In this document: positions 2,696 through 63,552 of the stretch, piece after piece
Layout of the letters: each line of letters starts with the position of its first letter
How positions within the stretch are numbered: the first letter of the stretch is position 1
Program-made: the position numbers and the translations under genes
Virus record (IMG/VR): IMGVR_UViG_3300029511_000167
Strand: one strand, 5' to 3'
Source: a virus
Lineage: Duplodnaviria > Heunggongvirae > Uroviricota > Caudoviricetes
Length of the DNA stretch: 64,000 nucleotides
The notes under the pieces: generated by a model
The model's input: only the letters and a program-made list of their open reading frames with translations
Told to the model about the DNA's origin: nothing
Databases searched by the model: none

Positions 2696-2762
2696 GATTC
2701 TCTCCTTTCATTCTTATTCTTATTTATAATGGTGTTTTTTTTCTCAAATAATTCCAAGAATG

Positions 2763-4569: not shown

Positions 4570-4707
4570 GTTTCTTTTCTCCTTTTGAATTATAAATTTA
4601 TGTTTCGATTTTATTATGCAAGAAATAATTAGGAATAGCGAAAGATTTGATGTATTTTTTTTAACTAAAATCTTACGGTATTCTTACAGTCTGTATTTCC
4701 CTTGATT

Positions 4708-5855: not shown

Positions 5856-6082
5856 TTTGTTTTCCCTCTTTTCTTCTTTGCTGTAAATAGTATGGTGCGA
5901 TGATGGGCAAAACAATGATCTAAAATAGAGAAAAAACAAAAAAACCGGCATATGCCGGTTTCATGTTTTAATCAAACTATGTCAATGTGTACTTATTTTT
6001 CACTCAGTTGCCCAATAGAATTCTCCAACTTCTGGAGTTATTGTCTTCTCGTTTTTGTTTACCCACATAATGTTTTCCTTTC

Positions 6083-8144: not shown

Positions 8145-8194
8145 AGATGAGTCTCCTTTTTTCTTTGATACCATTAGCATGTCGTTTTTTGAGT

Positions 8195-9475: not shown

Positions 9476-9624
9476 AAAAAACCTCCATTTTCAATGATTT
9501 ACTTTCTCTCTCTTTTTCTTTCTTTTTTTAGTATGTCTGATTTTTGTTCCTTTTGATAGCTCTTTCCTTTTCCTTTTCTTTTTTCTTACATACTAAATAA
9601 AACGGATACAGGGAGGAAGAAAAA

Positions 9625-10908: not shown

Positions 10909-11081
10909 TGTTTATTCTCCTTTTCTTCTTTTTCTTCATGCATAGTATGTGTTTTTTTTGTTGCAACAGCAGGTTCGGCAAAATGCTGGTCATAAGTTTT
11001 TTTCATTATAACACGGGTTTTATTGTTTGGAAAAAATTATAGCCATATTAATGATAATCACGAAAAAGGGAGGTTATATTT

Positions 11082-12473: not shown

Positions 12474-12479
12474 ATAAGA

Positions 12480-12897: not shown

Positions 12898-12915
12898 ATT
12901 TATAGTATGAAAGAT
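12898..12915 (-). promoter_or_regulatory. CATACTATAAAT promoter-like element upstream of the tRNA array
   Basis: Minus-strand reading tttcatacTATAAAtga, about 335 nt upstream of the first tRNA (Leu-TAA). The same motif class precedes at least 25 genes in the window. Confidence 0.45.
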
Positions 12916-15594: not shown

Positions 15595-15681
15595 AAGGTT
15601 CTCTCCTTCTTTTCTTAACTATAGATAGTATGACAGTTTTTCCTGGATTAAAAAAATCCCGTTTGAAACGGGATTTCGTAA

Positions 15682-16540: not shown

Positions 16541-16777
16541 CTTTCATATTCCTCCTTTTTTATTGATATACTTAATATGTGAAAATAATCAATGAAATAA
16601 AAAAAGAACTGTTAATCTCCAATGAACTACTCAGCAACAAGTTACCGAGCTTTTTGCTTCACCACCACTGCTTGAGTAGTCAATACATATAACATTCAAA
16701 TTTAGGCGGATAAAATGGCCAACTTCTGCGAAGCTGAAGTTCATGTTCCATGAACTTGCTTTCATCTCGGAGACAAT

Positions 16778-18727: not shown

Positions 18728-18783
18728 ATAGTCTCTCCTTTTTTCTATATTTTTTATTAGTATGGATTTAAAAACAGGAAAAC

Positions 18784-21238: not shown

Positions 21239-21268
21239 ATTATAGTATGAGATTTTTTTCATGTCAAC
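21239..21268 (-). promoter_or_regulatory. sigma-70-type promoter TTGACA-17-TATAAT with embedded CATAC
   Basis: Minus-strand reading TTGACAtgaaaaaaatctcatacTATAAT, about 35 nt upstream of the 19739..21205 start. Confidence 0.6.
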
Positions 21269-23984: not shown

Positions 23985-24506
23985 TTAAATCATCATCAGA
24001 TGTCCTAATCTTTCATATCCGGCTTTTTCAGTCAGTTCTGCAAATTCAGGACAAGTATCAGTAAGATATGCAAACACCAATCCAGTAAAAGACTGCTGAA
24101 GGGTTCTGTGTTCCCTTGTAAACAGCATGGCTACCTCATACGGGTTATTACATTTAAATCGTGGTTCATGATAATAATCAGATGTCTCCGGATCAAAGTC
24201 TTTTGTTTGTTTGAAAATTACATTGTCTGTTTCTGTAAGCAGAAGTTTATTGCAAATCTTATATGCCTGCTCATTTCTGGCATCATAAGCGTATGGATTT
24301 TTAAACAGTGTTCCAATGGTTCGGATCCAGTACCATGAAATTTCATCCATTCTCTTCTTTGCAGTCTCAGCCGCAGCGATGGCTTGGATCATTTCTTTGG
24401 TTGACATGGAAAATGAGTTAACCATGTTTGAAATGGTTTTTGTCATAGTTTCCGGTTCATAATCAGTTTTTAACAGCTCTACAAAATTTGCTTCATATTC
24501 TCTCAT
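23985..24506 (-). CDS. hypothetical protein
   Basis: 173-aa ORF, first gene of the putative operon containing the micro-ORF and the radical SAM gene. Confidence 0.5.
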   Translation of the reverse strand: MREYEANFVELLKTDYEPETMTKTISNMVNSFSMSTKEMIQAIAAAETAKKRMDEISWYWIRTIGTLFKNPYAYDARNEQAYKICNKLLLTETDNVIFKQTKDFDPETSDYYHEPRFKCNNPYEVAMLFTREHRTLQQSFTGLVFAYLTDTCPEFAELTEKAGYERLGHLMMI

Positions 24507-24704
24507 AGTTTTCTTCCTTTCTTTTTCTCTCCTGGTTTCTTGTGTCTTACTTATTATGGAGCAGAATTGAATGGAACAAATGAACGTTGATTATTTCCTG
24601 TCCGTATCTTTATCCCAAAAAAGCTCCTAAAAGGAGCCTTATTTTTTGCGTATTTCTTAGAAATTCAAGACGCAATTTTTGCGCATAGTTGGCATTGTTA
24701 ATGA

Positions 24705-25703
24705 TTAGGATTTCTTCTCTTCTGTCTTTTCTTCCGATTTCTCTTTTTCTTTCTTCTTTTTCTTTCTAGAAATTGTTAAAATCGGCAAAGCAACAGCTGC
24801 TGCTGCACCGCAAAGGGCCAGCGTTGGCAGATGTGATAAAGTTACGACTAGCATGTTTTCTGTGCTTTCTTTAATATCTTCTACGTTCTGTTTCATTCCA
24901 GTTGAAATCCGGACAGAAAGTGGGTCTTTTTCTTTTGCTGTATAAACAACAACTTCGGATACATGCATATCAATGGTGGTATAATCTACCTGATTATCAT
25001 AAATATTTAACCGGGTTTGATAAGAAGCCAGCTCATATTGAATTTCTGATAGTCGTTTTTCAAGAAGGATTATAGTATCCACAGACTCTGCTTCTTTAAG
25101 AAGTTCTAAGAGACGAGTCTGTTCGGTTTTAAGTGTTTCAATCCGGTCTTTTGAATCATAGTATTCCAGTGTAATATCAGAGAGATTTTCTGTGTGCTCT
25201 GTCATGTTTCCGGCTTCAGCTGCTGCTTGCAAAAACTCGTCTGCCTTTGCGGCTGGAATTCGGATGCTTAAATTTCCGTATGATTCACCTTCCTCCATGA
25301 TTGGCTCTGAACTGTATTCATCCGATAAATTTCCGTGGAGACTGATTCTTTCTATATATCCTCCAAGCGCTGCTACTTTTTTCCTTATCTCAGCAATTGT
25401 TTCGTCGAAGTTAGTTGTTTCTAACTGCATGGATATATTTCGCACCAGTTTCCGTTCTACTTCGGAATTCATTGATTCCTCTTTTAAACTTTCCTGTTCT
25501 GCTTCCATTGTTGTCGTATTTGCCATTTCTCCCGGAATTCCACCTCTAGCTGAGACATCAGCAACTTTCATTATCGAAGAATCAGACGCATTATAGGCTG
25601 TAACAGCAGAAGAAGATTCAGACGCAGAGCCGCCGCAGCCAGTTAGCATTGCAGACGCGACTGCAGTCATTACTAAAAAATTAGTCAACTTTTTTTGTTT
25701 CAT
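24705..25703 (-). CDS. lipoprotein with C-terminal transmembrane anchor (DUF4349-like architecture)
   Basis: Start MKQKKLTNFLVMTAVASAMLTGC (lipobox LTGC), a C-terminal hydrophobic segment, then a K/E-rich tail. Confidence 0.6.
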   Translation of the reverse strand: MKQKKLTNFLVMTAVASAMLTGCGGSASESSSAVTAYNASDSSIMKVADVSARGGIPGEMANTTTMEAEQESLKEESMNSEVERKLVRNISMQLETTNFDETIAEIRKKVAALGGYIERISLHGNLSDEYSSEPIMEEGESYGNLSIRIPAAKADEFLQAAAEAGNMTEHTENLSDITLEYYDSKDRIETLKTEQTRLLELLKEAESVDTIILLEKRLSEIQYELASYQTRLNIYDNQVDYTTIDMHVSEVVVYTAKEKDPLSVRISTGMKQNVEDIKESTENMLVVTLSHLPTLALCGAAAAVALPILTISRKKKKKEKEKSEEKTEEKKS

Positions 25704-25778
25704 ATCGATTACCTCGTTTTTTTTAAGTATGTTATTTTGGAAGAAAAAAAAGAGAGCCAACGGGCCCTCTCTTTCTTA

Positions 25779-27028
25779 TTATTTTGTGTCAGGTGTTTCA
25801 TCTGCTTTTTCTTCAGCAGCATTTTTCTCTTTTCCAGCTTCTTCTACTTTCTTCTTTTCCACTGGTTTCTTTTCTTCCTTTGCTTTTTCTGACCTTTCTT
25901 CTTCTTTTACGGTCTCTTCCAGAATGTCCGCTGCAATTGCTTTTTTCGCTGGGTCTGAATCTAGATCTGTTAGTCCGGTCAAATTGATGTTTCGTGTTAC
26001 CTTCGCATCATAAGAATCCGCTCTCATAATTTCAGCCAGATCCACACCGGTTGTCTCTTTCATAGACTCAAACAGCTTCATCATAACGGCAGGAACATTG
26101 CCAGCAATCGCATCCACAGAGTCATTGCTGCTGCCGCCGCCAATGATTGTAATCTTATCAATCTGGGATAATGGTTCTGCAATTTTTCCTGCAATTTCAG
26201 GAAGAACCTTAATCATCATCTCGGCCATGGCAACCTTGTTGTATTTCTGATAAGCTTCTGCTTTCTTTTCCATTGCTTCCGCTTCCGCAATACCTTTCGC
26301 CTGGATCGCAGCCGCCTCCGCTTCACCTTTTGCACGGATTCCTTCTGCTTCCTGAAGCATCGCGTATTTGTCTGCTTCGGCCTGGGCTCTTCTTGCTTCG
26401 GCATCTTTTTCCTGCTCATATTTCTTTGCTTCGGCTTCTCTCTGACGTTTTGCAAGAGTTGCAGCAGCTTCCTGCTCTACTTTATATCGCTCTGCGTCTG
26501 CTTTTCGGTTGATTTCTGCTTCCAGTCTCTGCTGTTCTACTTCAACCTGCTGCCGGTTTAACTCGGCTTCTCTCTCTGCTCTTGCAATCTGTGCATTTAC
26601 AGTAGTCGTCTGAATGGTCTTTTCCTGCATCTGCGCCTGAATCTTATACGCAGCATCAGCCTCAGCCAGTTTCGCATCCGCCAGTTTTTTCAGCTCTGCT
26701 TTCTTGATTTCCAGCTCATTATTTTTCTGGGCAATCTCTGTCTGAGCCATTACTTTTGCATCATTCGCAGCCTTATCCGCCTCCGCCTGAGCAATAGCAA
26801 CGTCACGTTCTGCCTGCGCTCTTGCAATGGAAGCATCTTTCTTGATTTTGGCTGTATTATCTGCACCCAGATCTCGAATGAGACCATTTTCATCTGTTAC
26901 ATTCTGGATGTTGCAGGATAAGATTTCAATTCCCAGTTTTGCCATGTCCTTGGAAGCTTTTTCCATTACCTGGTCAGAGAAAGAATCTCGATCTGTATTG
27001 ATAGCTTTTAATGATAATGTACCGATGA
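25779..27028 (-). CDS. floT: flotillin (FloT/YuaG-like) exon 2, the C-terminal two thirds
   Basis: An EA-rich flotillin repeat region plus the conserved KVLPEIA...IDKITIIGGGS block. The reading frame continues upstream of the annotated M to the intron junction. Confidence 0.75.
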
Positions 27029-27764
27029 ATAGCCATAGGTAAACGTTTGATATTATCTCCGGCTTTTCCCTGGCTCCACACCGTGCGTGAGAGTTTCCTG
27101 CTCACACGGCGCTCCATCGTTAGTAAAACTTTTTTCGATGATTTCGTTTTCCTAACGACTTGAGGCTGTTGCTCCATTCTCATTACAAGAACTTCATCGC
27201 TCGTGCCTCTACTTTCACAACGATTAAAATAAGTTATATTTTTCAATTTTCCTTATTAACGCTTCTCTGGATTTTGGACTCCTCTTCGTTCGTTGCTTCC
27301 CTTGTTCCAATAAACCTATCTGTGCATATACTTTTAGGCCGTTCCTTTAACCCTGAGTGCTTGAATATGCCTGTAACATATTAAGGACTTTCATAGCGAA
27401 AATTTTTACTAATCCTCACACTCTCCACCTTTTGTGGAACCTACCATTTCTAATAGGTCATGCTATAGAGTTGTACCCTCGGAACTTCGTCTCTGTTTTT
27501 CACACATTCTAGCCATGAGTATTTTATAGAACTCCGAACTATCAAATACAAATTCCACCTCTGGAATCCTTTCGTGTATTTCTACTTACGGTATTCTTCA
27601 TTCGACTTCATCGAGCTTTATACAGACAATCTTCCAAACGATTGCTGCATATCGAATATTAAGTATGACGTTTCAAGGCGTTACCCTATCATTCCATCAT
27701 TCGGTTTATCAGTTCAATAATTTAAAATTATTGGCTAAACTTTTCATTTAGCAACAAGTCGCAC
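27029..27764 (-). mobile_element. ORF-less group II intron (about 736 nt) interrupting the flotillin gene
   Basis: The 5' end is GTGCG. A domain V hairpin GAGCGCCGTGTGAGCAGGAAACTCTCACGCACGGTGT lies about 40 nt from the 3' end. The intron ends in ...GGCTAT (AY). Splicing restores ...LQGNMRE-IIGTLSLKAINTDRDSFSDQVMEKASKDMAKLGIEIL, colinear with FloT. Confidence 0.75.
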
Positions 27765-28158
27765 TCTCTCTCATGTTTCCCTGCAGGGAATCTTTAAGCT
27801 CCATAGCAATGTCATCTGGATTTTTGTTTAAAAAGTTCTTAGCAGCCAGCTTAATGCCATTTGGCGTCTGTTCGATACGAACTTTTGCAACTGCGTCTAC
27901 ATCCACATTAATAAAGTCATTGGTTGGAACCGGTTCTCCTGTTTTAATATCGACTGTCATCTGCCCTAAGTACAGGCGATCCAGTCTCTCTAAAAACGGG
28001 ATTCGGATGCCGGAACGGCCAATCAGGATTTTCGGTTCTTTTTTAAGTCCAGAAATAATAAATGCCTTATCCGGTGGTGCCTTGACATACCCAAGGGCGG
28101 CAATAATAATTAAAAAGATAATGAGTGCTGCACCAAGCAGCCAGAATGAAATTTTCAT
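27765..28158 (-). CDS. floT: flotillin (FloT/YuaG-like) exon 1, N-terminal TM helix plus start of SPFH domain
   Basis: MKISFWLLGAALIIFLIIIAALGYVKAPPDKAFIISGL matches the flotillin N-terminus. RBS aaaaggagaaaagcat. Confidence 0.75.
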
Positions 28159-28270
28159 ATGCTTTTCTCCTTTTGTGTTTATACTCAATTATTAGTATGT
28201 GTCTTTTCTCGTTAAATAACTGAAAAAGTGTAGCTTGGACAATTCTTCAATCTCAGAAAAAAAAGTTCAT

Positions 28271-28283
28271 CTTTCATACTAAA
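28271..28283 (+). promoter_or_regulatory. plus-strand TTTCATACTAAAA promoter-like motif
   Basis: 30 nt upstream of the plus-strand gene 28310..29098. The reverse-oriented copy at 28191-28200 serves the divergent flotillin gene. Confidence 0.45.
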
Positions 28284-28309: not shown

Positions 28310-29098
28310 ATGTATCAGATTAAGAATTATTTGAATAATGATGATGTTAAAATCATCGACAAACTTGGGCCCTTTCAGGTCATTGAATATCAAAGAGACT
28401 TGAGTGTAACACCGGAAAGTGCTTTGTTTGCTTACTACTGCAATGCAATGAATGTCCGAAAACGTCAGGTGGTTTGCGATTTAAAACAGGCGAATGTTAC
28501 TATTCAGGCAGGTGCTATGCAATGGATGCTTGGAAATGTTGCAGCGACCACTGGCTTAAAAGGTGTGGGAGATCTGTTTGGAAAGGCAATCCGTGGAAAG
28601 GCGACGGGAGAAGCTGCTATTAAGCCAGAATATAAGGGAGACGGTCTTTTGGTATTGGAACCTACTTATCGCCATATCCTTCTCATTGATGTGTCTGAGT
28701 GGAATGGTGGAATTGTTCTTGATGACGGGCTTTTTCTTGCCTGCGACTCAAGCCTTCAGCACAAAGCTATTATGCGAAGCAATTTAAGTTCTGCTGTTGC
28801 TGGTGGAGAAGGACTCTTTAATCTGAGCATCAACGGATCCGGTGTGGTTTGCCTAGAGTCTCAGGTCCCAAAAGAAGAGCTGATTGAAGTATCTCTGGAA
28901 AACGATGTAATTAAAATTGATGGAAATATGGCGATTGCTTGGAGCCGGAGTTTGGAATTTACCGTGGAGCGTTCTGGGAAAACACTGCTTGGCTCTGCTG
29001 CTTCTGGCGAAGGATTAGTAAATGTCTATCGCGGAACCGGAAAAATTCTAATGGCTCCAACTGCCAGACCTCCAGTTGTCACATTCTCAAAACAATAA
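28310..29098 (+). CDS. AIM24/DUF124 family protein
   Basis: 262 aa with VTIQAGAMQWMLGNV, GGEGLFNLSINGSGVVCLES and GEGLVNVYRGTGKILMAP blocks typical of TIGR00266/AIM24. Confidence 0.7.
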   Translation: MYQIKNYLNNDDVKIIDKLGPFQVIEYQRDLSVTPESALFAYYCNAMNVRKRQVVCDLKQANVTIQAGAMQWMLGNVAATTGLKGVGDLFGKAIRGKATGEAAIKPEYKGDGLLVLEPTYRHILLIDVSEWNGGIVLDDGLFLACDSSLQHKAIMRSNLSSAVAGGEGLFNLSINGSGVVCLESQVPKEELIEVSLENDVIKIDGNMAIAWSRSLEFTVERSGKTLLGSAASGEGLVNVYRGTGKILMAPTARPPVVTFSKQ

Positions 29099-29831: not shown

Positions 29832-30611
29832 TTATTTTTCAAATACATTTCGAAATGCATTCAGATTCGGGCCTGACGGAATCGCAAATACTACGGTGTC
29901 AAAGCTTTGTCTCTGCTTTAATGCCTCTGCGAAACACTCTGCTGTTTCTTCTGCTGCTTGCCCAAATACACCACATCCGAATGCGCCTAGAATCAGTATA
30001 TCAACTTTTTTGGAATTTGCAATATCAACCACAAACTGAATCCTGTCTTTTAATGCTTTTAGATTTTCTTCGTCTGATACATGCTGATACGTTTGTGCCG
30101 CGTGTTTGTTTGGCGCAGCGCAGGTAATAACATCGCAATGAACAGATTTTCCATTTCGTTCAAATCGCACATTTGGCGTATACAGCGCCCGATTGGTATA
30201 GAGAGCCTTGTTTTTGTGTGCCTGATTCCACTCATAATAGCTTTCTTTTTTTGAAAGCACGTTATAGAGAAATGACTCATGGCATAAGGACTCTTCCTGG
30301 GCAGAACTTCCATTTAAGAACATGCCACCCGGATTCTTATAGGAGGCAAAATTTAATACAGCAGTTTTTCCATCCTTTGCGTGTCTCATGATACTTTCTA
30401 CACTGTCGGATTCTTCCAAGAGAATTTTCATTCTTCCTTTTTCATCCATTCTTTTTGCTGTTTTTTCAAATGGTACTGCTTTTTCGGTTGCTGTTAATAC
30501 GATTGTCTCTGCGGCTGCCTTTGCAATTTCGTCTGCATGAGTTTCTTCCATTAATTTCGTATGAAGAACGGCCTTCTTTGCACGTTCTTCCTTGTTTTTC
30601 CAATAGCTCAT
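29832..30611 (-). CDS. macrodomain protein of the bacterial PARG-like / TIGR02452 (DUF2263) type
   Basis: LNFASYKNPGGMFLNGSSAQEESLCHESFLY contains the PARG signature GG-X8-QEE. C-terminal ILGAFGCGVFGQ. Confidence 0.65.
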   Translation of the reverse strand: MSYWKNKEERAKKAVLHTKLMEETHADEIAKAAAETIVLTATEKAVPFEKTAKRMDEKGRMKILLEESDSVESIMRHAKDGKTAVLNFASYKNPGGMFLNGSSAQEESLCHESFLYNVLSKKESYYEWNQAHKNKALYTNRALYTPNVRFERNGKSVHCDVITCAAPNKHAAQTYQHVSDEENLKALKDRIQFVVDIANSKKVDILILGAFGCGVFGQAAEETAECFAEALKQRQSFDTVVFAIPSGPNLNAFRNVFEK

Positions 30612-30622
30612 ATGGTTTCTCC

Positions 30623-32803
30623 TTATTTTTCTTCTGTTTTCTGTTTTCTTTTTTCATAAAGTTTCCTGACATGGCAGATATTGCTGCTTGGATCGTTAAG
30701 CTGAATGATTCCTTTTTCCAGTAATTCTTTTGCAAATACAATGAATCTGAAATCATCTGCTGATAATGCAGCCATATTTAGCAGCTGCAGCCGCCCAAGC
30801 AGGCCGCGTCTGCGTTTCCATGTCTTATAGTAGTTTAATTTGAGTTTGAACATGAAGTGGTTTGTATCTTCAAGCACAAACCCTTCAATGGGCTTTCCAT
30901 TATAGGTGTATGTACCATTCTGATCCGATTTTAGCAGGTTCTGATACCAGGCATCAAATTCATCGTAGGTGTTAAACTTAAATACCAGCTTTTTCGGCTG
31001 CAGATGGTAGGCAGCTGCAAAGGCCAATAGCTCTTCATAGCTTTTTTTCTGGAAATCAAACTCGTTTTTAATGATATCCAGAAGATAGACCTCGCTGTCT
31101 TCATAATCGATGATATGCGGGTCGTTTACCTGGTCCACACACTCAAAGACCAGCGTTTCAGAATGTTCTTTCAGATACTTCTTTAATGATTCTATCGTTT
31201 CTTCTGAAAGTTTCTTATAAAGCATATCTTTAAAACAGCCTGCGGCTTTTCCCGTCGGATCTGATTTTGTGGTGATAAACAGCTCATCTTTTTCTTTGTT
31301 AAAGCTTACCATACCAAGAAATCCATTTTCTTTAACATACGCTTCTACTGGAAATACCAGTTTTTCTTTCAGATTATGATACATGGTTTCTTCTACTTCG
31401 TCTACAGCGAAAAACTTATCATATCCACGACAGACCAGTTCTTCTGTTTTTGTATTAAGGTAAAGTCCACGGGCCTTGACCGTTCGTTCATTCCATACCC
31501 GGTTATTGAAAGCTTCCCTTGAAAAATTAAAAGAAGAAATCGAATCAAACTTTTTTTCTTTAATGTACGGGTCTTTTCTTAAGGTTTCAATTGCATCATG
31601 AACTGTTGAAAAATCAGTTTCCGGCTTTCGGTATACGGTGTTTCTAATTTCAGTTGTTTCTATCCCAGCAGCAGAGACAACAGCAGCCCGCAAGAAGCCG
31701 CCAAGTTCTACTTTTCCTTCTAGATTGTAGTTTCGATTGGTAGAATGAACTGGATAGCCAAAATTTCGATGTCCGTGAATCTGGTAGATATGATTGGGCA
31801 TGGATGCATCAAACATTTCTTCGGCTTCTTTTACATCAGGATAACCGCCAACACCGTGGATCATCTGTTCGGTAGAAAGAAAGATTGGATTTCCAGGAAT
31901 GGTACTTACACCGCCATGGCAGCCAAAGACAACTTTATCGTGATAGCGGTAGTATACACACTGAGCAAGCTTTCGATAAAAAATACGTACTTCTTTTTTT
32001 GAAATACCTGCTGCTTCCAGTTCTTTTGCCGTATGCTCCTCAAATTCTTTTGACGGAGTATGCTCATTATGTGCCCATAGGTGTAACCACCGCTCATGAT
32101 TTCCTTCCAGCAGCAGAACATTTTCTCTTTTTGAAAGGTTCATCATAAGTTTTAAAGTGTTCACATTATCTGGGCCGCGATCCAGATAGTCGCCATGGAA
32201 AATGTAAAACTCATCTTCTTTCAGTCCGCCTTTAAGATAACACTGCAATGCGTCAAAGCACCCGTGAATATCTCCAATGTGGTGGATCTTCTTATATTTA
32301 CTGAAATCCAGCGGCATAAGCAGCAGTTTTTCAAACTCATCTGGCTTGATAAATGGAAAATCTGCATAAAACGGCAGCTGCAGCCACTTACAAAACTTTT
32401 CCATCACCTCATCTGGCACTTGTTCTACCTGGCTGCGGCTACGGTTGCGGCGCATCGCATCTGCGAGGCTAATATCCGTAAAATCCACACCTATAATGCG
32501 GTAGCGATAGGTTTTTGCAAGGGTGCGATACTTATTTACATCTTTCTGAAGAATATTAGTGGCGTCAATGATTAAAAATTCACCTCGCGCCATTCTCTTT
32601 TCTGCAATCTTTGTTAGAAGCTCCCACACTTCCTTATCGTTCATTCGGGATGTTTTAATCCTTCCATCAATACCCAACACTGGGCCTTCATAAAGTCTTC
32701 GAATAGTATCTGAGCTTAATGTATAAGGCTCCAGCTGGTGTTCTTTTATCCAGGTTGTTTTTCCAGAAGCTGGAATTCCTCTAAGTAATACTAGTGTTCT
32801 CAT
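30623..32803 (-). CDS. pnkp: polynucleotide kinase-phosphatase Pnkp with C-terminal ligase-like nucleotidyltransferase domain (RNA end-healing/sealing enzyme)
   Basis: N-terminal P-loop LRGIPASGKTT, as in a 5' kinase. Central calcineurin-type phosphoesterase motifs IGDIHGC, GDYLDRGP and GNHE. C-terminal covalent-NTase-like motifs EGFVLED and FKLKL. No hen1 gene is adjacent. Confidence 0.75.
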   Translation of the reverse strand: MRTLVLLRGIPASGKTTWIKEHQLEPYTLSSDTIRRLYEGPVLGIDGRIKTSRMNDKEVWELLTKIAEKRMARGEFLIIDATNILQKDVNKYRTLAKTYRYRIIGVDFTDISLADAMRRNRSRSQVEQVPDEVMEKFCKWLQLPFYADFPFIKPDEFEKLLLMPLDFSKYKKIHHIGDIHGCFDALQCYLKGGLKEDEFYIFHGDYLDRGPDNVNTLKLMMNLSKRENVLLLEGNHERWLHLWAHNEHTPSKEFEEHTAKELEAAGISKKEVRIFYRKLAQCVYYRYHDKVVFGCHGGVSTIPGNPIFLSTEQMIHGVGGYPDVKEAEEMFDASMPNHIYQIHGHRNFGYPVHSTNRNYNLEGKVELGGFLRAAVVSAAGIETTEIRNTVYRKPETDFSTVHDAIETLRKDPYIKEKKFDSISSFNFSREAFNNRVWNERTVKARGLYLNTKTEELVCRGYDKFFAVDEVEETMYHNLKEKLVFPVEAYVKENGFLGMVSFNKEKDELFITTKSDPTGKAAGCFKDMLYKKLSEETIESLKKYLKEHSETLVFECVDQVNDPHIIDYEDSEVYLLDIIKNEFDFQKKSYEELLAFAAAYHLQPKKLVFKFNTYDEFDAWYQNLLKSDQNGTYTYNGKPIEGFVLEDTNHFMFKLKLNYYKTWKRRRGLLGRLQLLNMAALSADDFRFIVFAKELLEKGIIQLNDPSSNICHVRKLYEKRKQKTEEK

Positions 32804-32884
32804 ATTTCTTCCTCCATGTTTGATTTTCTCTTATAATGTGGAAAAAAAAGAAAAGATAAAGAAAAAAGAGAGGAAGTTCCTCTC

Positions 32885-34729: not shown

Positions 34730-35077
34730 TTATGCCGTTTTTTCATAAAATGTAAAATACCCTTCGCCTAGGTTAAACACTGCTTCATAATAGGTATTTT
34801 CTTTTTTGCAAACTAAGATGTCTCGATCGTTCCAGCGCTCGTAGCTGAAGATTTGACATCCCAAAGCTTTTACTAAATTCTTTAAATCCTGAATGGAAAT
34901 GAAAATGCGACTGTCGACTTCTTTTATTTTTCCTGCAATGACTGCAGATAAAGTACGTCTGTAATACCGATTTAATTCGGTGTTTAATTCTGATTCCGTT
35001 TTTCCCAAAATTTTATCTCCTTCAAGTTCTGAAATTTCATTTTGAGAAATTGTGTGGTTATGATTATATGTTCTCAT
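34730..35077 (-). CDS. hypothetical protein
   Basis: 115-aa ORF. Motif agtatg at 35107-35112. Confidence 0.45.
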   Translation of the reverse strand: MRTYNHNHTISQNEISELEGDKILGKTESELNTELNRYYRRTLSAVIAGKIKEVDSRIFISIQDLKNLVKALGCQIFSYERWNDRDILVCKKENTYYEAVFNLGEGYFTFYEKTA

Positions 35078-35152
35078 GTTTTTCTCCTTCTTTCATTTTC
35101 ATTATTAGTATGAGAGTTTCATGGAAAAACAAAAACCTGCACAAGGCAGGTT

Positions 35153-36214: not shown

Positions 36215-36404
36215 ATCTTTTTTCTCCTCTCTATATTTTTCTGATGTTACAAAAATAGTATGCAAGAATTGGTACTTCTTTAAGAAGTCAGAAGAAAAAG
36301 AGGAAGAAGCTCTTCTTTCTTTTCCATTTTCTATTTCCTTCTTCTTATATCACTATTGTTGGTATAAAAAAAAGAGGTGCAAAAACACCTCTTATCACAG
36401 CTTC

Positions 36405-37046
36405 TTACTCAGCGGCTGCTTCACTCTCTACATCTGTCTCTGTCTCAGACTCTGCAACTGTCTCGGCTTCCTCTTCTGCTGCCGTTTCATTTGCAACATC
36501 AGCTGCAGACTCATCAGAATCTACGGTTGCCTCATCGGTCTTACTCTCATCGGTTTCAACACTCTTTGTCGTCTCTGCGCTGCTTTCTTTCTTTTCATCA
36601 TCTGTAATAGTTAAGGATTCTGCATCATCCACTGGCTCGATTTCGTATACACGGCTGTAGATCGGCGGTAAGCTTCTGGTAGCAATGGCACTGTGATGCA
36701 CCATATACTTGGTTCCAGGTTCCATTTCCTCCGGAACAATCGTGAATTCACTTACCAGTGCCTGGAACTCATTTCCTTTTTCATCGATAAAGATTAACTT
36801 ATCCTGGGTGCCATTCTCATCTTCCATCGGTTCTGAATACTGGTAGGTAGCTACGGTCTGCATTACAGCAGTTGCATCCGGCTGCGTCTCATCCATTGGT
36901 GTAATCGGGACATCAGCATCCTCAATTGTCTCTCCATCTACGCCAATGTGAACGACCGGATCCTGCTTCTTTGCACAACCAGTAAACATCATGCAGGCGG
37001 AAGCTGCAACTGCAGCACACAGTAACATCTTTTTTGTTTTTTTCAT
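36405..37046 (-). CDS. acidic lipoprotein
   Basis: Start MKKTKKMLLCAAVAASACMMFTGC (lipobox). D/E/T-rich C-terminus. Terminator hairpin agaggtg-caaaaa-cacctct at about 36375-36400. Confidence 0.6.
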   Translation of the reverse strand: MKKTKKMLLCAAVAASACMMFTGCAKKQDPVVHIGVDGETIEDADVPITPMDETQPDATAVMQTVATYQYSEPMEDENGTQDKLIFIDEKGNEFQALVSEFTIVPEEMEPGTKYMVHHSAIATRSLPPIYSRVYEIEPVDDAESLTITDDEKKESSAETTKSVETDESKTDEATVDSDESAADVANETAAEEEAETVAESETETDVESEAAAE

Positions 37047-37220
37047 AATATTTTTCTCCTCTTTTTGGTTTAACAATGTTAGTATGAAAGATCCCACAAC
37101 GAAAACTGGGATTTTTTAAAAGGTATCAAAAATAGTGATACCAGGCATGAAAAAAAGAAAGAAGAAAGAATTCCCTGAAATGTTTCAAGACAGGGAACTC
37201 TTATCGTTTCTTAATCTTTT

Positions 37221-37562: not shown

Positions 37563-37684
37563 GATTGGTTCTCCTTATTTAAAAAATGTTCTAATTATAG
37601 TATGAGAGAAATTCTCAAAACGGTGCGCCTTAATTTAAAAAATATCAGTAATTATGATATTCACTCAAATGAATCCGTTTTTTT

Positions 37685-37954: not shown

Positions 37955-38633
37955 AGTAATTACCTTCCTTTTTTAATTTTATTTTTTCTTTAGTATGAAA
38001 GATGAAAGGAAAAAATTGAGAAATGATGTATCAAAAATCCTGATACTTTTAAAAAATGAAAGAAAAAGGGAGAGGAAACTCCAGGAAAGATAAGAAGGAA
38101 TATTTTACAGTAGCTGCAAATGCGGATGCGGTGGCAGATGGGAAAGGGAATCGGCAGCAGGTACGGGTGTAACTGTTAAACAGACGCAGACGAATGAGGT
38201 GGGCAGCTGCAGCTGGGAGGCAATTGAGATTGAAACTGAAAAAGGAAAAAGAAAGAGGAAAAATGGATGGATTCGCAGTGTAAGGAAAAAAAGAGAACTG
38301 AGGTGGTCACATTGGGTGCTAGGTTTATGAAAGGAAAGAAAATGAAAAAGGAAAGAAGGAAAAAGAAAAAAAGGAAGAAAATATATCTTTTTCGGTAAGT
38401 CTATACATTGTGACGAATTTTCATTTTTTTGGTCTCTTTATTACTTATTACGCATTTTTTCTTCCTGCCTCATAAAATCACTTTTTTCCTGCGTATTTTC
38501 GTGAGTTTCTTCTCTTTTTTACAGGGAAAAATGTGCGGAAAAAAGTATTGAAAAAAGGCCTGTAAAAAACAGACCCTTTTAACAATATCTCCTAATTTAG
38601 CTGTTCTACTTTTCCTATCTCCTATTCTCTTTT

Positions 38634-39116: not shown

Positions 39117-39196
39117 AGATTGTATGACTCCATTTCTCTTTTTCTTTAGTATGTAGGAAAAACAAAAAGAAAAAAGGCTGTAAAGCCTTTTTTCTC

Positions 39197-40213: not shown

Positions 40214-40341
40214 TCTCCTTTTTTAAGTTCTTATCTTTAGTATGAGAGTTTTGGAAAAAATGCAGTTCTCAGAACAATAATTTTTACAATAAAAAAAGCC
40301 AGATACCACTGGCTTTTAATTTTTTTCTGACCTATAAGGGA

Positions 40342-40704: not shown

Positions 40705-40831
40705 GTACCAATCATTTGGACGTGTTCTTACGCCGTTTTCATCTGTTTTCCGAAAACATGAACTTTCAAGATCATATCGCTGGATCCATTTCTTTCATAT
40801 TAAGAGTATCAATATGAAAGGATGACAAGTT

Positions 40832-41455: not shown

Positions 41456-41839
41456 AAACTTTATTTTTTTTTGTTATTTTGTCATAAATCTCTCATAATA
41501 TTTATGACGAAAAGATTTCTGGAGATTAGATTATATTGTATTAAGTGGCCACTAAGGATTAATTAGTTTTATTCTGGAATCTTGATGTGTCATATTCTTT
41601 ATTTTTTATTTCAGCCAGTGCAATAGTAATTGCATTTTAAAATTATAATTGCATTTTAAAAAAACCATAAACACAGTTCTTATTTAACTAAATTATTTTG
41701 TCTATTTTGGGACTGTGGTTAATATGCTACATGCTTTGGTCTGGAGCGGTTTTCTCGTTTTGAAAGTAAATTAGAAGAGATGTGATCGAGTTTTTGTGGG
41801 CGAATAGAATATAGTATTCAGTAGCCCTGAGCGTATTAA

Positions 41840-42932: not shown

Positions 42933-43012
42933 TTCTTATCTCTCCTTTTTTCTTTTATGAATACAGTATGCTGTTTATTTATCTAAACAAAAAAGAAGGC
43001 AAAGCCTTCCTT

Positions 43013-43795: not shown

Positions 43796-43886
43796 TTATA
43801 TAATGGGAAAAAAATGGGAAGATAAAGAACGAAAATCATTTGACTACAAAAAATTGCATACTATGGCAGAAAAAAGAAAAAAGGAG

Positions 43887-46624: not shown

Positions 46625-47965
46625 ATTTGTCTTGAACTACTCCGACTTATAGAAGTCGGCGATTCTCGTTTCATCCCAGCGGCCAGATATTTCTGGTCTT
46701 ATACCAGTCCACGAAAGGGCTGTCCCAGCCCTCTAATCATTTATATAGACAGGATTCTTAATCCTTCCTTTTGAATGTTTAATGCCGCGTTTATATCTCT
46801 ATCATGTAGGGCACCACATTCTGGGCATGTCCACTGCCTAACACTTAAATCCTTAACCTCTGTATTTTTATAACCACAAGTACTACATAGCTGACTTGAT
46901 GAAAAGAATCTTCCTACTTTTACAACTGTCCTTCCATACCAATCAGACTTATAGGATAACATTCTTTGGAAAGTCCCAAATGCCGCATCCTGAATCTCTT
47001 TTGATAGTTTGTGATTCTTTAACATACCTTTTATGTTTAAATCTTCAATACAGAATGTTCCATATGTTTGGATTAACCAAGTAGTTAATTTATTTAGAAA
47101 GTCTTTTCTTAAATTGGCTACCTTTTCGTGTAAACGAGATACCAAAAGTCTCTGTTTTTCATAACGCCTACTGCCAATTGTTTTTCTTGACAGGATACGT
47201 TGTTCCTTAGAGAGTCTTTTTAACATCTGTTTCAAGCATTTTGGATTATGGATTTTTATTTTATTTGATAATACTGCATAATCCTTAATCCCTAAATCAA
47301 TCCCTACTGTTATATTGTTTTCTGGTAAATGATGTATTTCTTCTTCACAAAGAATCGATACATAATATTTTTCAGAAGGCGTTTGGCTTACGGTAGCGGA
47401 TAAGATCTTCCCATTGCAAGGTCTTGATATTTTTGTTTTTACATATCCAAGTTTTGGGAGTTTTACGAACTTTTCTAATACCGATATACTGTTATTGTTA
47501 TTTTTTGAAGTATAACTGTACTTATGTTTCTTTTTCGATTTAAACTTAGGAAACTTCGCTCTTTTAGAAAAGAAGTTCTTATAGGCCGTATCCAAATTTT
47601 TAATCGCAGACTGTAGCGCTGTTGAATCTACTTCATTTAACCACGAAAAATCCTCATCCTGTTTTAACTTAGTCAATTCTTCTGAGCCGCAGCTGTAGGA
47701 TACCGATTTGTATTCCATACGATATTCCTGAATTCTCATATTTAAGAAATAATTGTATACAAATCTTGCCGATCCAAATGTTTTAGCTAATAGCTTCTTT
47801 TGTTCTTTATTTGGATAGATCCGATATTTATATGTACGATTTATATGCATGGAAGCCTCCTTTCATAGACTACTTATATTATGACCTATTTTTTTAATTT
47901 GACAACTATAGTTTTGTCAATTCATCTCACCGGTTATAGAACCGGGAGTGTTCTTGACGTTTTTT
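46625..47965 (-). mobile_element. IS200/IS605-family element carrying tnpB only (IS1341-like), with matching subterminal hairpins
   Basis: LE hairpin ccggTTATAGAAccgg (47930-47945) and RE hairpin ccgacTTATAGAAgtcgg (46643-46660). No tnpA. An extra hairpin gggctgtcccagccc lies in the predicted omega-RNA region. Confidence 0.6.
46741..47850 (-). CDS. tnpB: TnpB (OrfB) RNA-guided endonuclease of IS200/IS605 family
   Basis: N-terminal [31 protein letters not shown]-terminal zinc finger CSTCGYKN...[18 protein letters not shown]. Confidence 0.85.
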
Positions 47966-48041: not shown

Positions 48042-48409
48042 GGGCACAATCTCCTTTACTTTAATATCGTCAATTTTGGTATCTCTTTTAGTATGAAAGA
48101 AATCAGAAAAAAATTTCTTTTATTATGAAAAAAAGCATGAAAAAAAAGCCGCATTTGCGGCTTGAACAAAAACAGATATGTCCGTTTTCTTAAAAGGATC
48201 TGCGAATCATAACAGTGGATTGAGCACCCAAATGGGAAAAATACTTGCTTTTCAGCAAACTTTCTTTTAATCTTTAATATATGTTGTATGAAGGAACCAC
48301 TGTCTCCGCTGCAGTCATAATTAGTATGAGAGAAATGAAGAAAAAAGTGCTGATTTTTTGAAAAAAAATTTAAAAAAAGATGACACAGTGATTTGTGTCA
48401 TCTTTTCTT

Positions 48410-50491: not shown

Positions 50492-50765
50492 ACTTTCCTC
50501 CCAAGCACTGCTGCTGCATCTGAATAATATACTTATTCTTTAGTATGCAAGATGGAATATGCGTTTGATTTTCTTTTGATCAAAAAAGTTTATTCTTTCA
50601 ATAACAATGGATAAAGAAAAATAGGCTATTCGATAACTACGAATGGCCTATTTTTTTGTTAATATTAATTTTCTGAATCCAACAAGCGGAAAAGAATCGT
50701 ATCAATGTTTCGAAAGTAAGCCATTTCTCCAGAGGAGAGATTCGGCTTAACTTAATAACATTGGC

Positions 50766-52955: not shown

Positions 52956-53048
52956 GACTAATTCCTTTCTCTTTTTCTCTTATTTTCTTTAATATGGAAA
53001 ATTTTCCAGCATAATAATATTGAAAACAGAAAAAAAGGAGAACTTATT

Positions 53049-55084: not shown

Positions 55085-55238
55085 ATTTTTTTCCTCCTAT
55101 CATTAGGATGACAGAAAATGGAAAAAAAAGAGAAAAAAAGAGCCGAAAATGGCTCTTTCCAACTACAAGTGCAATGCTTGTACGTTGATATTACATTATA
55201 GATAGAATATACGAAATTTTCATGTTTGTCAATTAATT

Positions 55239-56609: not shown

Positions 56610-56804
56610 ACTTATTACCTCCTTTTCATTTTATGCAAGTATGTTTCTTTATATTCTTTTTCTTGATTTCTTGATTTCTTTACTTCTAATTTTAGTATAA
56701 TAGCTCTTTCCATTAAAGTCAATAGTCTGCAATGACTTTACAATCCCGTCTGAAATCCTTCAAAATTCTTACACAGGCACCAAGAGCTACACCCAAATCT
56801 GTTT

Positions 56805-57795: not shown

Positions 57796-58067
57796 AAGCT
57801 TGTTCTCCTTTTTTCGTTTGATATATTTAGTATGATAGAATGAATTCGATTTTAATGAAAATATGAAAAAAAGCGGATGCAATCCGCTTTTAAAGGCAAC
57901 CGCCGCTGTTCCAGAACTTCGGATGCATCGGCTCTCCTTTAAAACTGAATCCAAACTTCTCCTCTTTTCCGTTAATCTTTAATGTCAATACACCGCTGCA
58001 AAGGTTTGGCATTTCCCATCATATGAAACAAACTCAACATGTTTTTCCATTTCAGATTTCCTTTCTT

Positions 58068-58238: not shown

Positions 58239-58360
58239 TCTTTTTTTCTCCTTTTTTCTTTTTCTTCCTCTAATATGTTGTTTTTTTTCATAGTTAATGT
58301 TTCGCATTATCCATTTCTTTTTTTCTCCATATTATAGAAAATCGAAAATAGGAGGTTTTT

Positions 58361-59226: not shown

Positions 59227-59345
59227 ATTTTTTCTCCTTTTTCTTCTTAATTATAGTCTTAATTAGTATGGAAGATATTGATAAATACAATGGCAGAAAA
59301 AAAGGCATTCGAAAATGCCTTTTTTCGTGCAGCTTACGACGCTGC

Positions 59346-59726: not shown

Positions 59727-59918
59727 TTCTTATAATATGGAATTATTTTGAGGAAATAAAAAAAGAGCCTAATGGCTCTTTTCCGGATTATTGTTTTCTT
59801 TCTCTTTAGCAGTCTTCTCTTCCTGGATTTTAAGATCTAATCCAACGAAGCAAAGCTGCCCATCACATTCATAATTATCAAAATTTTCATATGCTCTCCT
59901 ATTAATCGCTTTAACTGC

Positions 59919-60554: not shown

Positions 60555-60683
60555 CTCCTTTTTTTCTTATTTATCATTAGTATGTATGTTTTTTTTAACA
60601 CTAAAAATTCAAGCTCTAAGTTGTTCGCAAACAATGAGCACATTGTTAGTATGTTGAAAAAACAGAACTACAAAAAAAGAGCC

Positions 60684-63461: not shown

Positions 63462-63552
63462 CTTTCATTCTCCTTTTCTGCTTTTGATACTTCAAGTATG
63501 TTGAAATTTGAAGCGAAATAAAAAAGGCAGTAAACAACCACTTTTTTCTGGT

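What the first reader, a model, noticed from the sequence alone, without database searches (positions are those of the whole stretch)
28191..28283. Window-wide conserved promoter-like motif (T)CATACTA(A), 25-50 nt upstream of at least 25 genes on both strands
On the plus strand, the hexamer agtatg (reverse complement CATACT) sits 23-51 nt upstream of minus-strand start codons at 9531, 10943, 12904 (tRNA array), 15627, 18759, 21244, 25726, 28194, 35107, 36257, 37081, 37599, 37993, 39148, 40239, 42965, 48090, 48323, 50542, 56638, 57829, 59265, 60579 and 63495. The forward CATACT sits the same distance upstream of plus-strand genes at 9589, 28275 and 43857. The motif is orientation-specific, usually preceded by T-rich sequence and followed by A, giving TTTCATACTAAA; the example coordinates span two divergent copies. 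In two cases it abuts a perfect TATAAT (21239-21268 with TTGACA-17-TATAAT, and 37596-37606). CATAnnnTA / CATnnTA-type -10 boxes are characteristic of the sporulation sigma factors E, K and G in Bacillus, and many phages use their own sigma factor. One promoter class driving almost every gene of a 60-kb block, including a tRNA array, is therefore notable; the promoter class appears to be element-specific.
Basis: seen in the sequence. Interest (0 to 1): 0.6.

Follow-up and report, generated by a model that had tools for sequence, protein, structure and literature searches.

The report
Private promoter class of a giant mobile element
A short DNA signal (CATACTA, more generally CATnnTA) sits in front of almost every transcription unit of a huge mobile element inserted in a gut Lachnospiraceae chromosome but not in front of host genes. 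It most likely marks promoters read by the element's own sigma factor, so the element probably runs its own transcription programme.

Summary
CATACT occurs 62 times against 22.6±4.5 expected. The wider form CATnnTA lies 20-62 nt upstream of 33 of 41 spaced genes (shuffles 3.4) but only 3 of 39 operon-internal genes.

It is always co-oriented with the downstream gene, often follows a terminator, and has no -35 box of σA, σG/F, σE or σK.

The window is part of an insertion of at least 120 kb between purL and argC in a Lachnospiraceae chromosome. The motif continues along the whole stretch seen. It is absent upstream of host-clade genes (1/70) and at chance in other Clostridia (28/514).

Diverged relatives, including a 233-kb IMG/VR contig with a MOBV relaxase, keep only this motif in otherwise unalignable upstream regions.

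They also encode a σ70-family factor in a syntenic replication module. That sigma operon has consensus σA promoters. The sigma carries His at the σ70 Q437 position, and Q437H is the known change that accepts C at -12.

Best reading: -10-only promoters of an element-encoded sigma cascade. The sporulation-sigma idea fits only the -10 box.

Not shown: transcription start sites, and the sigma gene of the window's own element.

The parts
28193..28199 (-). CATACTA promoter motif (flagged pair, left copy), 34 nt before the ATG of gene 27748-28158 (5' exon of an intron-split flotillin-like gene)
28275..28281 (+). CATACTA promoter motif (flagged pair, right copy), 28 nt before the ATG of the AIM24-like gene 28310-29098
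2725..2731 (-). CATTATA variant upstream of the ClpS / ClpA-like operon (2695-1)
4612..4618 (-). CATAATA variant upstream of the choline-binding repeat protein 2800-4569
5888..5894 (-). CATACTA upstream of gene 5406-5855
8175..8181 (-). CATGCTA variant upstream of the radical-SAM gene 7251-8144, directly after a terminator hairpin
9529..9535 (-). CATACTA upstream of the DUF6557 gene 8678-9475 (divergent pair with 9589)
9589..9595 (+). CATACTA upstream of plus-strand gene 9625-9990
10943..10949 (-). CATACTA upstream of gene 10180-10908
12903..12909 (-). CATACTA about 340 nt upstream of the tRNA array (12564-11507). A sigmaA-like TGtTATAAT near 12634 lies closer to the array
15626..15632 (-). 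CATACTA upstream of gene 15004-15594. The terminator stem ends 21 nt before it
16573..16579 (-). CATATTA variant upstream of gene 16106-16540
18758..18764 (-). CATACTA upstream of gene 18245-18727. The terminator stem ends 21 nt before it
21243..21249 (-). CATACTA overlapping a perfect sigmaA consensus (TTGACA-17-TATAAT, 21267-21239), upstream of the HipA-like / Fic operon 21205-18822
24552..24558 (-). CATAATA variant upstream of gene 23985-24506
25725..25731 (-). CATACTT upstream of the DUF4349 gene 24705-25703. The terminator stem ends 15 nt before it
32832..32838 (-). CATTATA variant upstream of the kinase-phosphatase-RNA ligase gene 30623-32803
35106..35112 (-). CATACTA upstream of gene 34730-35077. 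The terminator stem ends 19 nt before it
36256..36262 (-). CATACTA upstream of the choline-binding protein 35153-36214
37080..37086 (-). CATACTA upstream of gene 36405-37046
37598..37604 (-). CATACTA (CATACTATAAT) upstream of gene 37221-37562
37991..37997 (-). CATACTA upstream of the DUF6465 gene 37685-37954
39147..39153 (-). CATACTA upstream of the YdjM-like gene 38634-39116. The terminator stem ends 12 nt before it
40238..40244 (-). CATACTA (best PWM score in the window, 20.8) upstream of ORF 39884-40213
40796..40802 (+). CATATTA variant upstream of plus-strand gene 40832-41455
41494..41500 (+). CATAATA variant (PWM 11.6) upstream of plus-strand tRNA-Ser 41840-41921
42964..42970 (-). CATACTG upstream of the ParB-like gene 41958-42932. 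The terminator stem ends 20 nt before it
43857..43863 (+). CATACTA upstream of the plus-strand JetD_C-like gene 43896-44615
47877..47883 (-). CATAATA variant upstream of the TnpB gene 46741-47850
48089..48095 (-). CATACTA upstream of a 35-aa ORF
48322..48328 (-). CATACTA with no ORF before the terminator at 48163-48146 (possible small RNA)
50541..50547 (-). CATACTA upstream of the Listeria-Bacteroides-repeat surface protein 48410-50491
52990..52996 (-). CATATTA variant upstream of the operon 52955-50766 (79 aa, 108 aa, PcfJ). Divergent pair with 53010
53010..53016 (+). CATAATA variant upstream of the plus-strand RNase H gene 53049-53675
55104..55110 (-). CATCCTA variant upstream of the HipA_C gene 54029-55084
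56637..56643 (-). CATACTT upstream of gene 56235-56609
57828..57834 (-). CATACTA upstream of the metallophosphatase operon 57795-56805
58271..58277 (-). CATATTA variant upstream of gene 58068-58238 (divergent pair with 58328)
58328..58334 (+). CATATTA variant upstream of the plus-strand PIN7 gene 58361-59059
59264..59270 (-). CATACTA upstream of gene 59074-59226
59733..59739 (-). CATATTA variant upstream of gene 59346-59702
60578..60584 (-). CATACTA upstream of gene 59919-60545. A second copy lies at 60647-60653, with a terminator stem ending 17 nt before it
63494..63500 (-). CATACTT upstream of the YpsA-like operon 63461-60684

Best explanation
CATACTA (family-wide CATnnTA, in this element WWCTnnCATACTAA) is the -10-like core of a promoter class private to a giant integrated mobile element. 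One copy precedes each transcription unit, often right after the previous unit's terminator, and it works without a -35 box.

The most likely reader is host core RNA polymerase carrying an element-encoded sigma70-family factor. That factor is itself transcribed from ordinary host sigmaA promoters. The order would then be: host sigmaA, then the element sigma, then nearly all other element genes.

Shown here: the motif's statistics, position, orientation, restriction to the element, conservation across diverged relatives, lack of a -35 box, and lack of space for any other promoter. Also shown: a conserved sigma gene with sigmaA-type promoters in relatives, carrying a His at the residue that reads position -12.

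For: 1. Enrichment and placement. CATACT occurs 62 times against 22.6 expected. CATnnTA precedes 33/41 spaced genes against 3.4 in shuffles, and only 3/39 operon-internal genes. One copy precedes an eight-gene operon (L103:274).

2. Features typical of a sigma70-type -10 box. A at hexamer position 2 and T at position 6 are invariant. Copies are co-oriented with genes on both strands, including divergent pairs. Copies lie 12-16 nt before tRNA 5' ends in relatives.

3. No competing promoter. SigmaA-type matches are not enriched (44 against 47.5 expected; 48 against 64.8), while terminators are enriched 2-3 fold. In 7 sites the terminator stem ends only 12-21 nt before CAT.

4. Restriction to the element. 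The PWM gives 4.5 hits per 10 kb in the window and 1 hit in about 127 kb of host-clade chromosome. That one hit is a remnant at the insertion junction. CATACT lies upstream of 34/73 element genes, 0/71 host-clade genes and 2/505 genes of other Clostridia.

5. Conservation. Relatives with 29-85% protein identity keep CATnnTA at the same distance in otherwise unalignable upstream regions.

6. Candidate reader. A sigma70-family gene with regions 2-4 scores 71.5 bits against a cut-off of 42.9. It is conserved at 50.6% identity at the same place in two diverged relatives. It is preceded by tandem 11-12/12 sigmaA consensus promoters rather than by CATnnTA.

7. Residue-level link. Both sigma orthologues have His at the sigma70 Q437 position. 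Q437H suppresses a T-to-C change at -12 (PMC2613000).

8. The XRE regulator module also uses TATAAT-type boxes, as expected for genes that must be expressed before the element sigma is made.
Against: - No transcription start sites are available.
- The sigma gene was seen only in relatives (L116-118, L123). The window's own element could be followed for about 120 kb, up to the marker gene that lies about 8 kb downstream of sigma in the relatives, and no sigma or RNAP domain occurs in that stretch.
- The one check that could have extended the synteny was inconclusive.
- The candidate sigma has a region 4, which usually reads a -35 box, yet none is conserved.
- The flanks of the motif differ between elements: CTnnCATACTA here, and tnaCATTATA in relatives.
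- The His-437 argument is borrowed from E. coli sigma70 genetics.
Confidence: 0.6

Rival explanations
1. Host sigmaA holoenzyme reads these sites as weak -10 variants (CATAAT-like). It might be helped by AT-rich upstream DNA, or by an element-encoded activator or 'appropriator' protein rather than a dedicated sigma.
For: A-11 and T-7 are retained. CATAAT and CATATT variants occur at the same positions. Two sites overlap a true TATAAT. No sigma was found in the 120 kb of the window's own element that I could read.
Against: C at -12 is invariant across more than 60 sites and across diverged elements. Such sites are absent upstream of host-clade genes and at chance in other Clostridia, where TATAAT dominates. 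There is no -35 box and no TG extension to compensate. Relatives carry a conserved sigma with a residue known to accept C at -12.
Confidence: 0.13
2. A host sporulation sigma factor (sigmaG/F in the forespore, or sigmaE/K in the mother cell) reads the motif, so the element would be expressed during sporulation.
For: CATnnTA equals the textbook sigmaG/F -10 box (my knowledge). Mother-cell -10 boxes in C. difficile are CATATTAT and CATATAAT (PMC3789822).
Against: The defining -35 elements are missing. GnATR occurs 0/33 times, ATA at most 1/33 and AC at most 2/33 at any spacing from 13 to 20. Position 8 of the motif is A (18/29) rather than the T of CATAnnnT. Host-clade chromosomal genes show no such sites in the sample. 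The gene content (replication, FtsH, HPF, tRNAs, relaxase in a relative) does not look specific to sporulation.
Confidence: 0.07
3. The motif is not a promoter. It would instead be an RNA-level leader or processing signal, or the operator of a DNA-binding regulator placed at a fixed distance from ribosome-binding sites.
For: The distance to the start codon is fairly tight (median 33 nt), and the motif is strand-specific.
Against: In 7 sites only 12-21 nt separate the upstream terminator stem from the motif, which leaves no room for another promoter. No other conserved element or sigmaA-type enrichment is present. The motif also precedes tRNAs. It is a 7-nt asymmetric box with the A2/T6 signature of -10 elements, unlike dimeric operators.
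Confidence: 0.05
4. A non-canonical element-encoded RNA polymerase (YonO-like single-subunit enzyme, or a phage-type multisubunit enzyme) recognises the motif.
For: Many element proteins have no annotation, and part of the element was not seen.
Against: The large unannotated proteins I checked are an acidic coiled-coil protein, a secreted surface protein and a member of phrog_33734. None has a DxDGD catalytic motif. A canonical sigma70-family gene is conserved in the family.
Confidence: 0.05

Closest known systems
SigN (ZpdN) regulon of Bacillus subtilis plasmid pBS32 (PMC6751061)
   Same: The sigma factor is encoded on a large mobile element. Its regulon is essentially restricted to that element. 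The sigma gene is transcribed from SigA-dependent promoters.
   Different: SigN promoters have a clear -35 (TTTACG) and a GATA-type -10. The regulon is about a dozen promoters on an 84-kb plasmid. Here there are more than 60 -10-only CATnnTA sites over at least 120 kb, and sigma-dependence has not been tested.
Phage sigma cascades: T4 gp55 late promoters (TATAAATA, -10 only) and SPO1 gp28 / gp33-34 (my knowledge)
   Same: A host-sigma-dependent early step produces a private sigma, which then reads a short private promoter present before most remaining genes. T4 late promoters also lack a -35 box.
   Different: The consensus differs. T4 gp55 lacks region 4 and needs gp33 and the sliding clamp, whereas the candidate sigma here has regions 2-4. 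The element carries relaxase, sortase and adhesin genes rather than recognisable virion genes.
Sporulation sigma promoters of Firmicutes (sigmaG/F: GnATR-N17-18-CATnnTA; sigmaE/K: ATA or AC plus CATA-type -10; PMC3789822)
   Same: The -10 box begins with CAT and matches CATnnTA.
   Different: None of the -35 elements is present. The sites are confined to the mobile element. The candidate sigma falls below every sporulation-sigma model cut-off.
E. coli sigma70 Q437H altered-specificity mutant (Waldburger et al. 1990, as reviewed in PMC2613000)
   Same: His at this region 2.4 position goes with acceptance of C instead of T at -12. Both sigma orthologues have His there, and the promoters have an invariant C at -12.
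   Different: Q437H is a laboratory point mutant of a housekeeping sigma. Here it would be the natural state of a divergent sigma that also lacks the W433/W434 pair (I and Y instead).
Sigma factors annotated on clostridial conjugative transposons (Tn916, Tn1549, Tn5397 families; PMC7438776)
   Same: These are sigma-like genes on mobile elements of Clostridia whose target promoters are thought to lie within the element.
   Different: Their consensus sequences are stated to be unknown. Those elements are 18-60 kb, and no homology to the present sigma was tested or shown.

Membership tests
sigma70-family -10 promoter element (generic) | A at hexamer position 2 (-11) and T at position 6 (-7) | tested here: met
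   29/29 in the logo. All 33 CATnnTA variants keep both.
sigma70-family -10 promoter element (generic) | Lies upstream of and co-oriented with transcription units, including RNA genes, one per unit | tested here: met
   33/41 spaced genes against 3/39 operon-internal genes. One copy precedes an eight-gene operon. Copies lie 12-16 nt before tRNA 5' ends in L106 and L108.
sigma70-family -10 promoter element (generic) | Transcription starts 5-9 nt downstream | not testable with these tools
   No transcript data. A purine at the predicted +1 in 27/29 sites is uninformative because the leaders are purine-rich.
Housekeeping sigmaA promoter (TTGACA-17-TATAAT) | -35 hexamer at 16-18 nt, T at -12 | tested here: not met
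   At most 2/33 sites have at least 4/6 of TTGACA at any spacing. C at -12 is invariant. SigmaA-type matches are not enriched.
sigmaG/sigmaF forespore promoters | -10 box CATnnTA | tested here: met
   33/41 spaced genes. The consensus is from my knowledge of the B. subtilis literature.
sigmaG/sigmaF forespore promoters | -35 box GnATR, 15-18 nt upstream | tested here: not met
   0/33 at spacings 13-20. G is 0/29 at the expected column.
sigmaE/sigmaK mother-cell promoters (PMC3789822) | -35 ATA (sigmaE) or AC (sigmaK), with a -10 of the CATATTAT / CATATAAT type | tested here: not met
   ATA at most 1/33 and AC at most 2/33. Position 8 is A in 18/29 and T in 9/29.
Mobile-element sigma with element-restricted regulon (SigN-like, phage cascades) | Sigma gene carried by the element | tested here: inconclusive
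   Present and syntenic in relatives L116-118 and L123. Not retrievable for the window's own element, where the walk ended about 8 kb short.
Mobile-element sigma with element-restricted regulon (SigN-like, phage cascades) | Cognate promoters confined to the element | tested here: met
   The host sample is limited to about 127 kb of the host clade plus about 1 Mb of other Clostridia.
Mobile-element sigma with element-restricted regulon (SigN-like, phage cascades) | Sigma gene itself expressed from host-type promoters | tested here: met
   Tandem 11-12/12 sigmaA consensus sites precede the sigma operon in L123 and L116, and no CATnnTA does. These are consensus matches only.
Mobile-element sigma with element-restricted regulon (SigN-like, phage cascades) | Sigma-dependent transcription of the promoters | not testable with these tools
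   Needs in vitro transcription or genetics.
T4-type late promoters | Sigma lacking region 4, with the TATAAATA box | tested here: not met
   The candidate sigma aligns through region 4, and the box differs.

The most novel reading that the evidence does not exclude
This would be an undescribed family of giant (about 120-230 kb) integrative, mobilisable elements of gut Lachnospiraceae. They carry their own replication genes, tRNAs, FtsH, HPF and ClpA/ClpS. Nearly all of their genes would run on an autonomous programme that needs no -35 box. The programme would be driven by a divergent sigma whose natural His at the Q437 position sets a C at -12 (CATnnTA), which keeps the element's promoters insulated from the host's promoters.
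Probability: 0.45. Interest if true: 0.65.

Novelty: new member of a known kind. Interest (0 to 1): 0.5.

Why it matters
If confirmed, the motif gives a simple sequence handle for three things. It defines the transcription units of a very large and common, but unannotated, mobile element of human-gut Lachnospiraceae. It delimits the element in assemblies. It also allows relatives to be found.

The pairing of a natural His at the sigma70 Q437 position with promoters that all have C at -12 can be tested directly. It would show how a mobile element keeps its promoters silent for the host sigma and its own genes under one switch. It could also supply orthogonal sigma-promoter parts for engineering Clostridia.

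The general principle, a mobile element with its own sigma and promoter class, is already well known from phages and from pBS32.

Tried and rejected
- Close DNA or protein relatives in reference phages and plasmids: none. Two long 'Bacteriophage sp.' contigs that matched Pol III alpha or sigma share only those genes and lack the motif (0/18, 1/16, 0/29).
- IMG/VR and GTDB scans with the Pnkp-ligase fusion: nothing. Distant YpsA-bearing IMG/VR contigs lack the motif.
- Looking for a sigma or RNAP in the window and in about 60 kb of flanks: none by Pfam, even at relaxed thresholds.
- Large unannotated proteins as hidden polymerases: rejected.
- Literature search for the motif string returned only primers.
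The SSB-end check was negative.
- A profile of the two sigma orthologues found no further family members in IMG/VR, so no covariation test of residue 437 against the -12 base was possible.
- Rfam found nothing in the 1.7-kb non-coding region of L112.
- Phage or conjugative element is not settled. No capsid, terminase or type IV secretion genes were seen in what I could read.

Full report
**Observation.** The two copies at the flagged coordinates are there. AGTATG at 28194-28199 serves the minus-strand gene 27748-28158. CATACT at 28275-28280 serves the plus-strand AIM24-like gene 28310-29098. The hexamer occurs 62 times against 22.6 ± 4.5 in dinucleotide shuffles, and no shuffle reaches 62.

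With a rough gene call, 31 copies are fully intergenic, which is 3.0 per kb against 0.58 per kb in coding DNA. CATACTA is as common in intergenic DNA as the Shine-Dalgarno heptamer AAGGAGA. The hexamer ends 22-54 nt (median 33) before the start codon.

A logo of 29 sites reads WWCTnnCATACTAA. The region where a -35 box would lie shows only weak T-richness.

CATAATA, CATATTA, CATTATA, CATGCTA and CATCCTA occupy the same position. CATnnTA lies 20-62 nt before the ATG of 33 of 41 genes that have an upstream gap of at least 70 nt. Allowing CATA[ACT]T raises this to 37 of 41. Shuffles give 3.4 on average and 11 at most. Only 3 of 39 tightly packed, operon-internal genes have it. The layout is therefore one copy per transcription unit. 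In the flank, a single copy precedes an eight-gene biosynthetic operon.

**What the window is.**
- Almost all genes run on the minus strand. They encode accessory functions: ClpS with a ClpA-like ATPase, choline-binding surface proteins, radical-SAM enzymes, HipA- and Fic-like proteins, a kinase-phosphatase-RNA ligase fusion, PARG, a ParB-like protein, PcfJ, TnpB, RNase H and a PIN protein. There is also a tRNA array.
- Exact-protein look-ups place the window in a 3.5-Mb chromosomal contig.
- The flanking ArgJ is 100% identical to that of 'Clostridiaceae bacterium Marseille-Q3526', a relative of Otoolea and [Clostridium] symbiosum.
- In that isolate and in a second genome, purL lies next to the choline-binding and arg genes. 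The element is therefore an insertion, and its left end lies about 2 kb left of the window.
- Walking right through five overlapping loci showed the same-direction array continuing for at least 120 kb. The genes along it are TK, Thg1, Macro, a biosynthetic operon, a glycosyltransferase, a sortase, DUF4315, an XRE module, two more PcfJ genes, FtsH, a ribosome hibernation factor, an SbcC-like ATPase and RecJ.
- The motif precedes nearly every unit along the whole stretch.

**The motif is specific to the element.**
- A PWM built from the window sites hits 4.5 times per 10 kb in the window. It hits once in about 127 kb of host-clade chromosome, at a PBECR4 remnant at the insertion junction.
- CATACT lies upstream of 34 of 73 element genes, 0 of 71 host-clade genes and 2 of 505 genes in other Clostridia. 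In those other Clostridia TATAAT is the top hexamer.
- The looser CATnnTA is at chance upstream of chromosomal genes: 1/70 in the host clade, and 28/514 in other Clostridia against 26.8 in shuffles.

**Why it is a promoter, and a -10-only one.**
- A at position 2 and T at position 6 are invariant, which is the signature of sigma70-type -10 boxes.
- The motif is co-oriented with its gene on both strands and forms back-to-back pairs in divergent intergenic regions.
- In relatives it sits 12-16 nt before mature tRNA 5' ends. That argues against a translational role.
- SigmaA-type TTGACA/TATAAT matches are not enriched in the window (44 against 47.5 expected; 48 against 64.8). Terminator-like hairpins are enriched 2-3 fold.
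- Sixteen of 29 sites have a terminator hairpin within 110 nt upstream. In seven of these the stem ends only 12-21 nt before CAT. That leaves no space for another promoter, or for a -35 box outside the terminator.
- None of the 33 sites has the -35 element of sigmaG/F (0), sigmaE (at most 1), sigmaK (at most 2) or sigmaA (at most 2) at any spacing from 13 to 20.

**Conservation.** Diverged relatives of the element were recovered through homologues of flank proteins:
- L106 (85% protein identity);
- L108 (51%);
- L116-118 (53%);
- L119, from Lacrimispora amygdalina (46%);
- L123-125, a 233-kb IMG/VR contig (47%).

In L106, L108, L116 and L119, CATnnTA precedes 5/11, 10/15, 6/12 and 7/11 spaced genes, against about 1 in shuffles. 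In L123-125 it visibly precedes most units as well. CATTATA and CATAATA are preferred over CATACTA in most of these relatives.

Orthologous genes have otherwise unalignable upstream regions but keep the box at the same distance. RecJ, for example, has CATTATA in all four elements compared.

**A candidate reader.**
- About 8 kb upstream of a family-specific 430-aa marker gene, the relatives encode a sigma70-family protein (384 and 372 aa, 50.6% identical to each other). It has regions 2-4 and an N-terminal extension.
- It passes the superfamily model (71.5 bits against a cut-off of 42.9) but no subfamily model, including the sporulation ones.
- It sits next to SSB, DNA polymerase III alpha, an RNase T-like exonuclease, RecJ and an SbcC-like ATPase.
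- The sigma operon is one of the few units without CATnnTA. Instead it has tandem near-perfect sigmaA promoters: TTGACA-18-TATAAT and TTAACA-16-TATAAT in L123, and two 11/12 sites in L116. Only one 12/12 site occurs in 40 kb of the window.
- The XRE regulator module likewise carries TATAAT-type boxes.
- This pattern fits a cascade: host sigmaA, then the element sigma, then the CATnnTA units.
- Both sigma orthologues have His at the position of E. coli sigma70 Q437 and Thr at T440 (LHEMTE). Q437H is a classical change that suppresses a T-to-C substitution at -12 (PMC2613000). That gives a residue-level reason for promoters that all begin with C.

**What remains open.**
- The window's own element was followed only as far as the orthologue of the marker gene (L115:485-1780). 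Its sigma gene is inferred from the shared order of at least seven genes between L115 and L116 and was not seen.
- No start-site data exist.
- The nature of the element is unsettled. The 233-kb relative is listed in IMG/VR, and the Pol III alpha gene of relative L116 has homologues at about 40% identity in uncultivated phage contigs. The 233-kb relative also carries a MOBV relaxase, sortases and thioester/SpaA adhesins. No virion or type IV secretion genes were seen.
- I favour a giant integrative mobilisable element.

**Comparison with known systems.**
- The closest functional analogue is SigN of plasmid pBS32. It is an element-borne sigma, transcribed from SigA promoters, with a regulon confined to the plasmid. 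Its promoters, however, have a -35 TTTACG and a GATA-type -10 (PMC6751061).
- Phage cascades such as T4 gp55 and SPO1 gp28 share the logic, and T4 late promoters also lack a -35 box.
- Sigma factors on clostridial conjugative transposons are annotated, but their consensus sequences are stated to be unknown (PMC7438776).

**Verdict.** The interpretation as an element-specific promoter class is supported. The link to sporulation sigmas is not. This is a new member of a known kind of system, of moderate interest.

Noticed in passing
window 27029-27717 (-): A group II intron (Rfam RF02004 at 171 bits, plus RF00029) without an obvious ORF splits an SPFH/flotillin-like gene into 27748-28158 and 25779-26966. 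Another strain (L098) has the uninterrupted 547-aa gene. This also explains the 'intergenic' CATACT at 27662.
   Followed up: partly
window 1-2695 (-): A ClpS adaptor gene is followed by a 792-aa ClpA/ClpB-like double-AAA ATPase at the end of the element. The same pair ends the diverged relative L106. A ClpS/ClpA pair carried by a mobile element is unusual for Firmicutes.
   Followed up: no
window 11507-12564 (-) and 41840-41921 (+): The array holds nine tRNAs: eight found by ARAGORN (Arg, Leu x3, Cys, Lys, Glu, Gln) and one found only by Rfam at 12171-12240. A separate tRNA-Ser lies on the other strand.
   Followed up: partly
window 29832-32803 (-); L011:3735-4613; window 60684-61751: An RNA-repair-like gene set is present: a polynucleotide kinase-phosphatase-RNA ligase fusion (726 aa), a PARG-like protein next to it, a Thg1-like enzyme, and an RlaP-type nucleotidyltransferase.
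   Followed up: no
window 48146-48328 (-): A strong CATACTA site (48322-48328) is followed by about 150 nt without an ORF and then a terminator (48163-48146). This is a candidate small RNA.
   Followed up: no
window 21239-21267 (-): The only perfect TTGACA-17-TATAAT in 40 kb overlaps CATACTA upstream of the HipA-like / Fic operon. It may be a dual promoter that keeps these toxin-like genes expressed from host sigmaA as well.
   Followed up: no
L001/L002:12700-15930; L013:4105-5250: The left junction carries a 711-bp direct duplication that includes the promoter and 5' part of a PBECR4 nuclease gene. The 'empty-site' isolate keeps one full PBECR4 copy with its CATACTA site, while another genome (L019) lacks it.
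   Followed up: partly
L112:13874-15589: A 1.7-kb stretch without ORFs, with internal repeats, lies between a type I R-M S-subunit gene and an 811-aa coiled-coil protein. Rfam finds no match. It could be an origin of transfer or replication, or an unknown RNA.
   Followed up: partly
L112:4921-8613; L114/L115:8230-12861: The element encodes housekeeping-like proteins: a ribosome hibernation factor, FtsH, RecJ and an SbcC-like ATPase. Each has its own CATACTA site.
   Followed up: partly
L114:1973-5830 versus L115:485-4859: This region varies between strains. One strain has a 1285-aa secreted surface protein where another has five genes, including the 430-aa marker and an RNase T-like exonuclease.
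   Followed up: no
L116:4243-8722, L119:3752-8653, L123:4524-8660: DNA polymerase III alpha is split into two ORFs, separated by 250-770 nt, in two relatives. It is a single 1378-aa ORF in the IMG/VR relative. The split may reflect an intron or intein, or a real split gene.
   Followed up: no
window 46741-47850 (-): A TnpB (IS605 OrfB) gene has its own CATAATA site. Neighbouring strains differ here, and several assemblies break near it.
   Followed up: no
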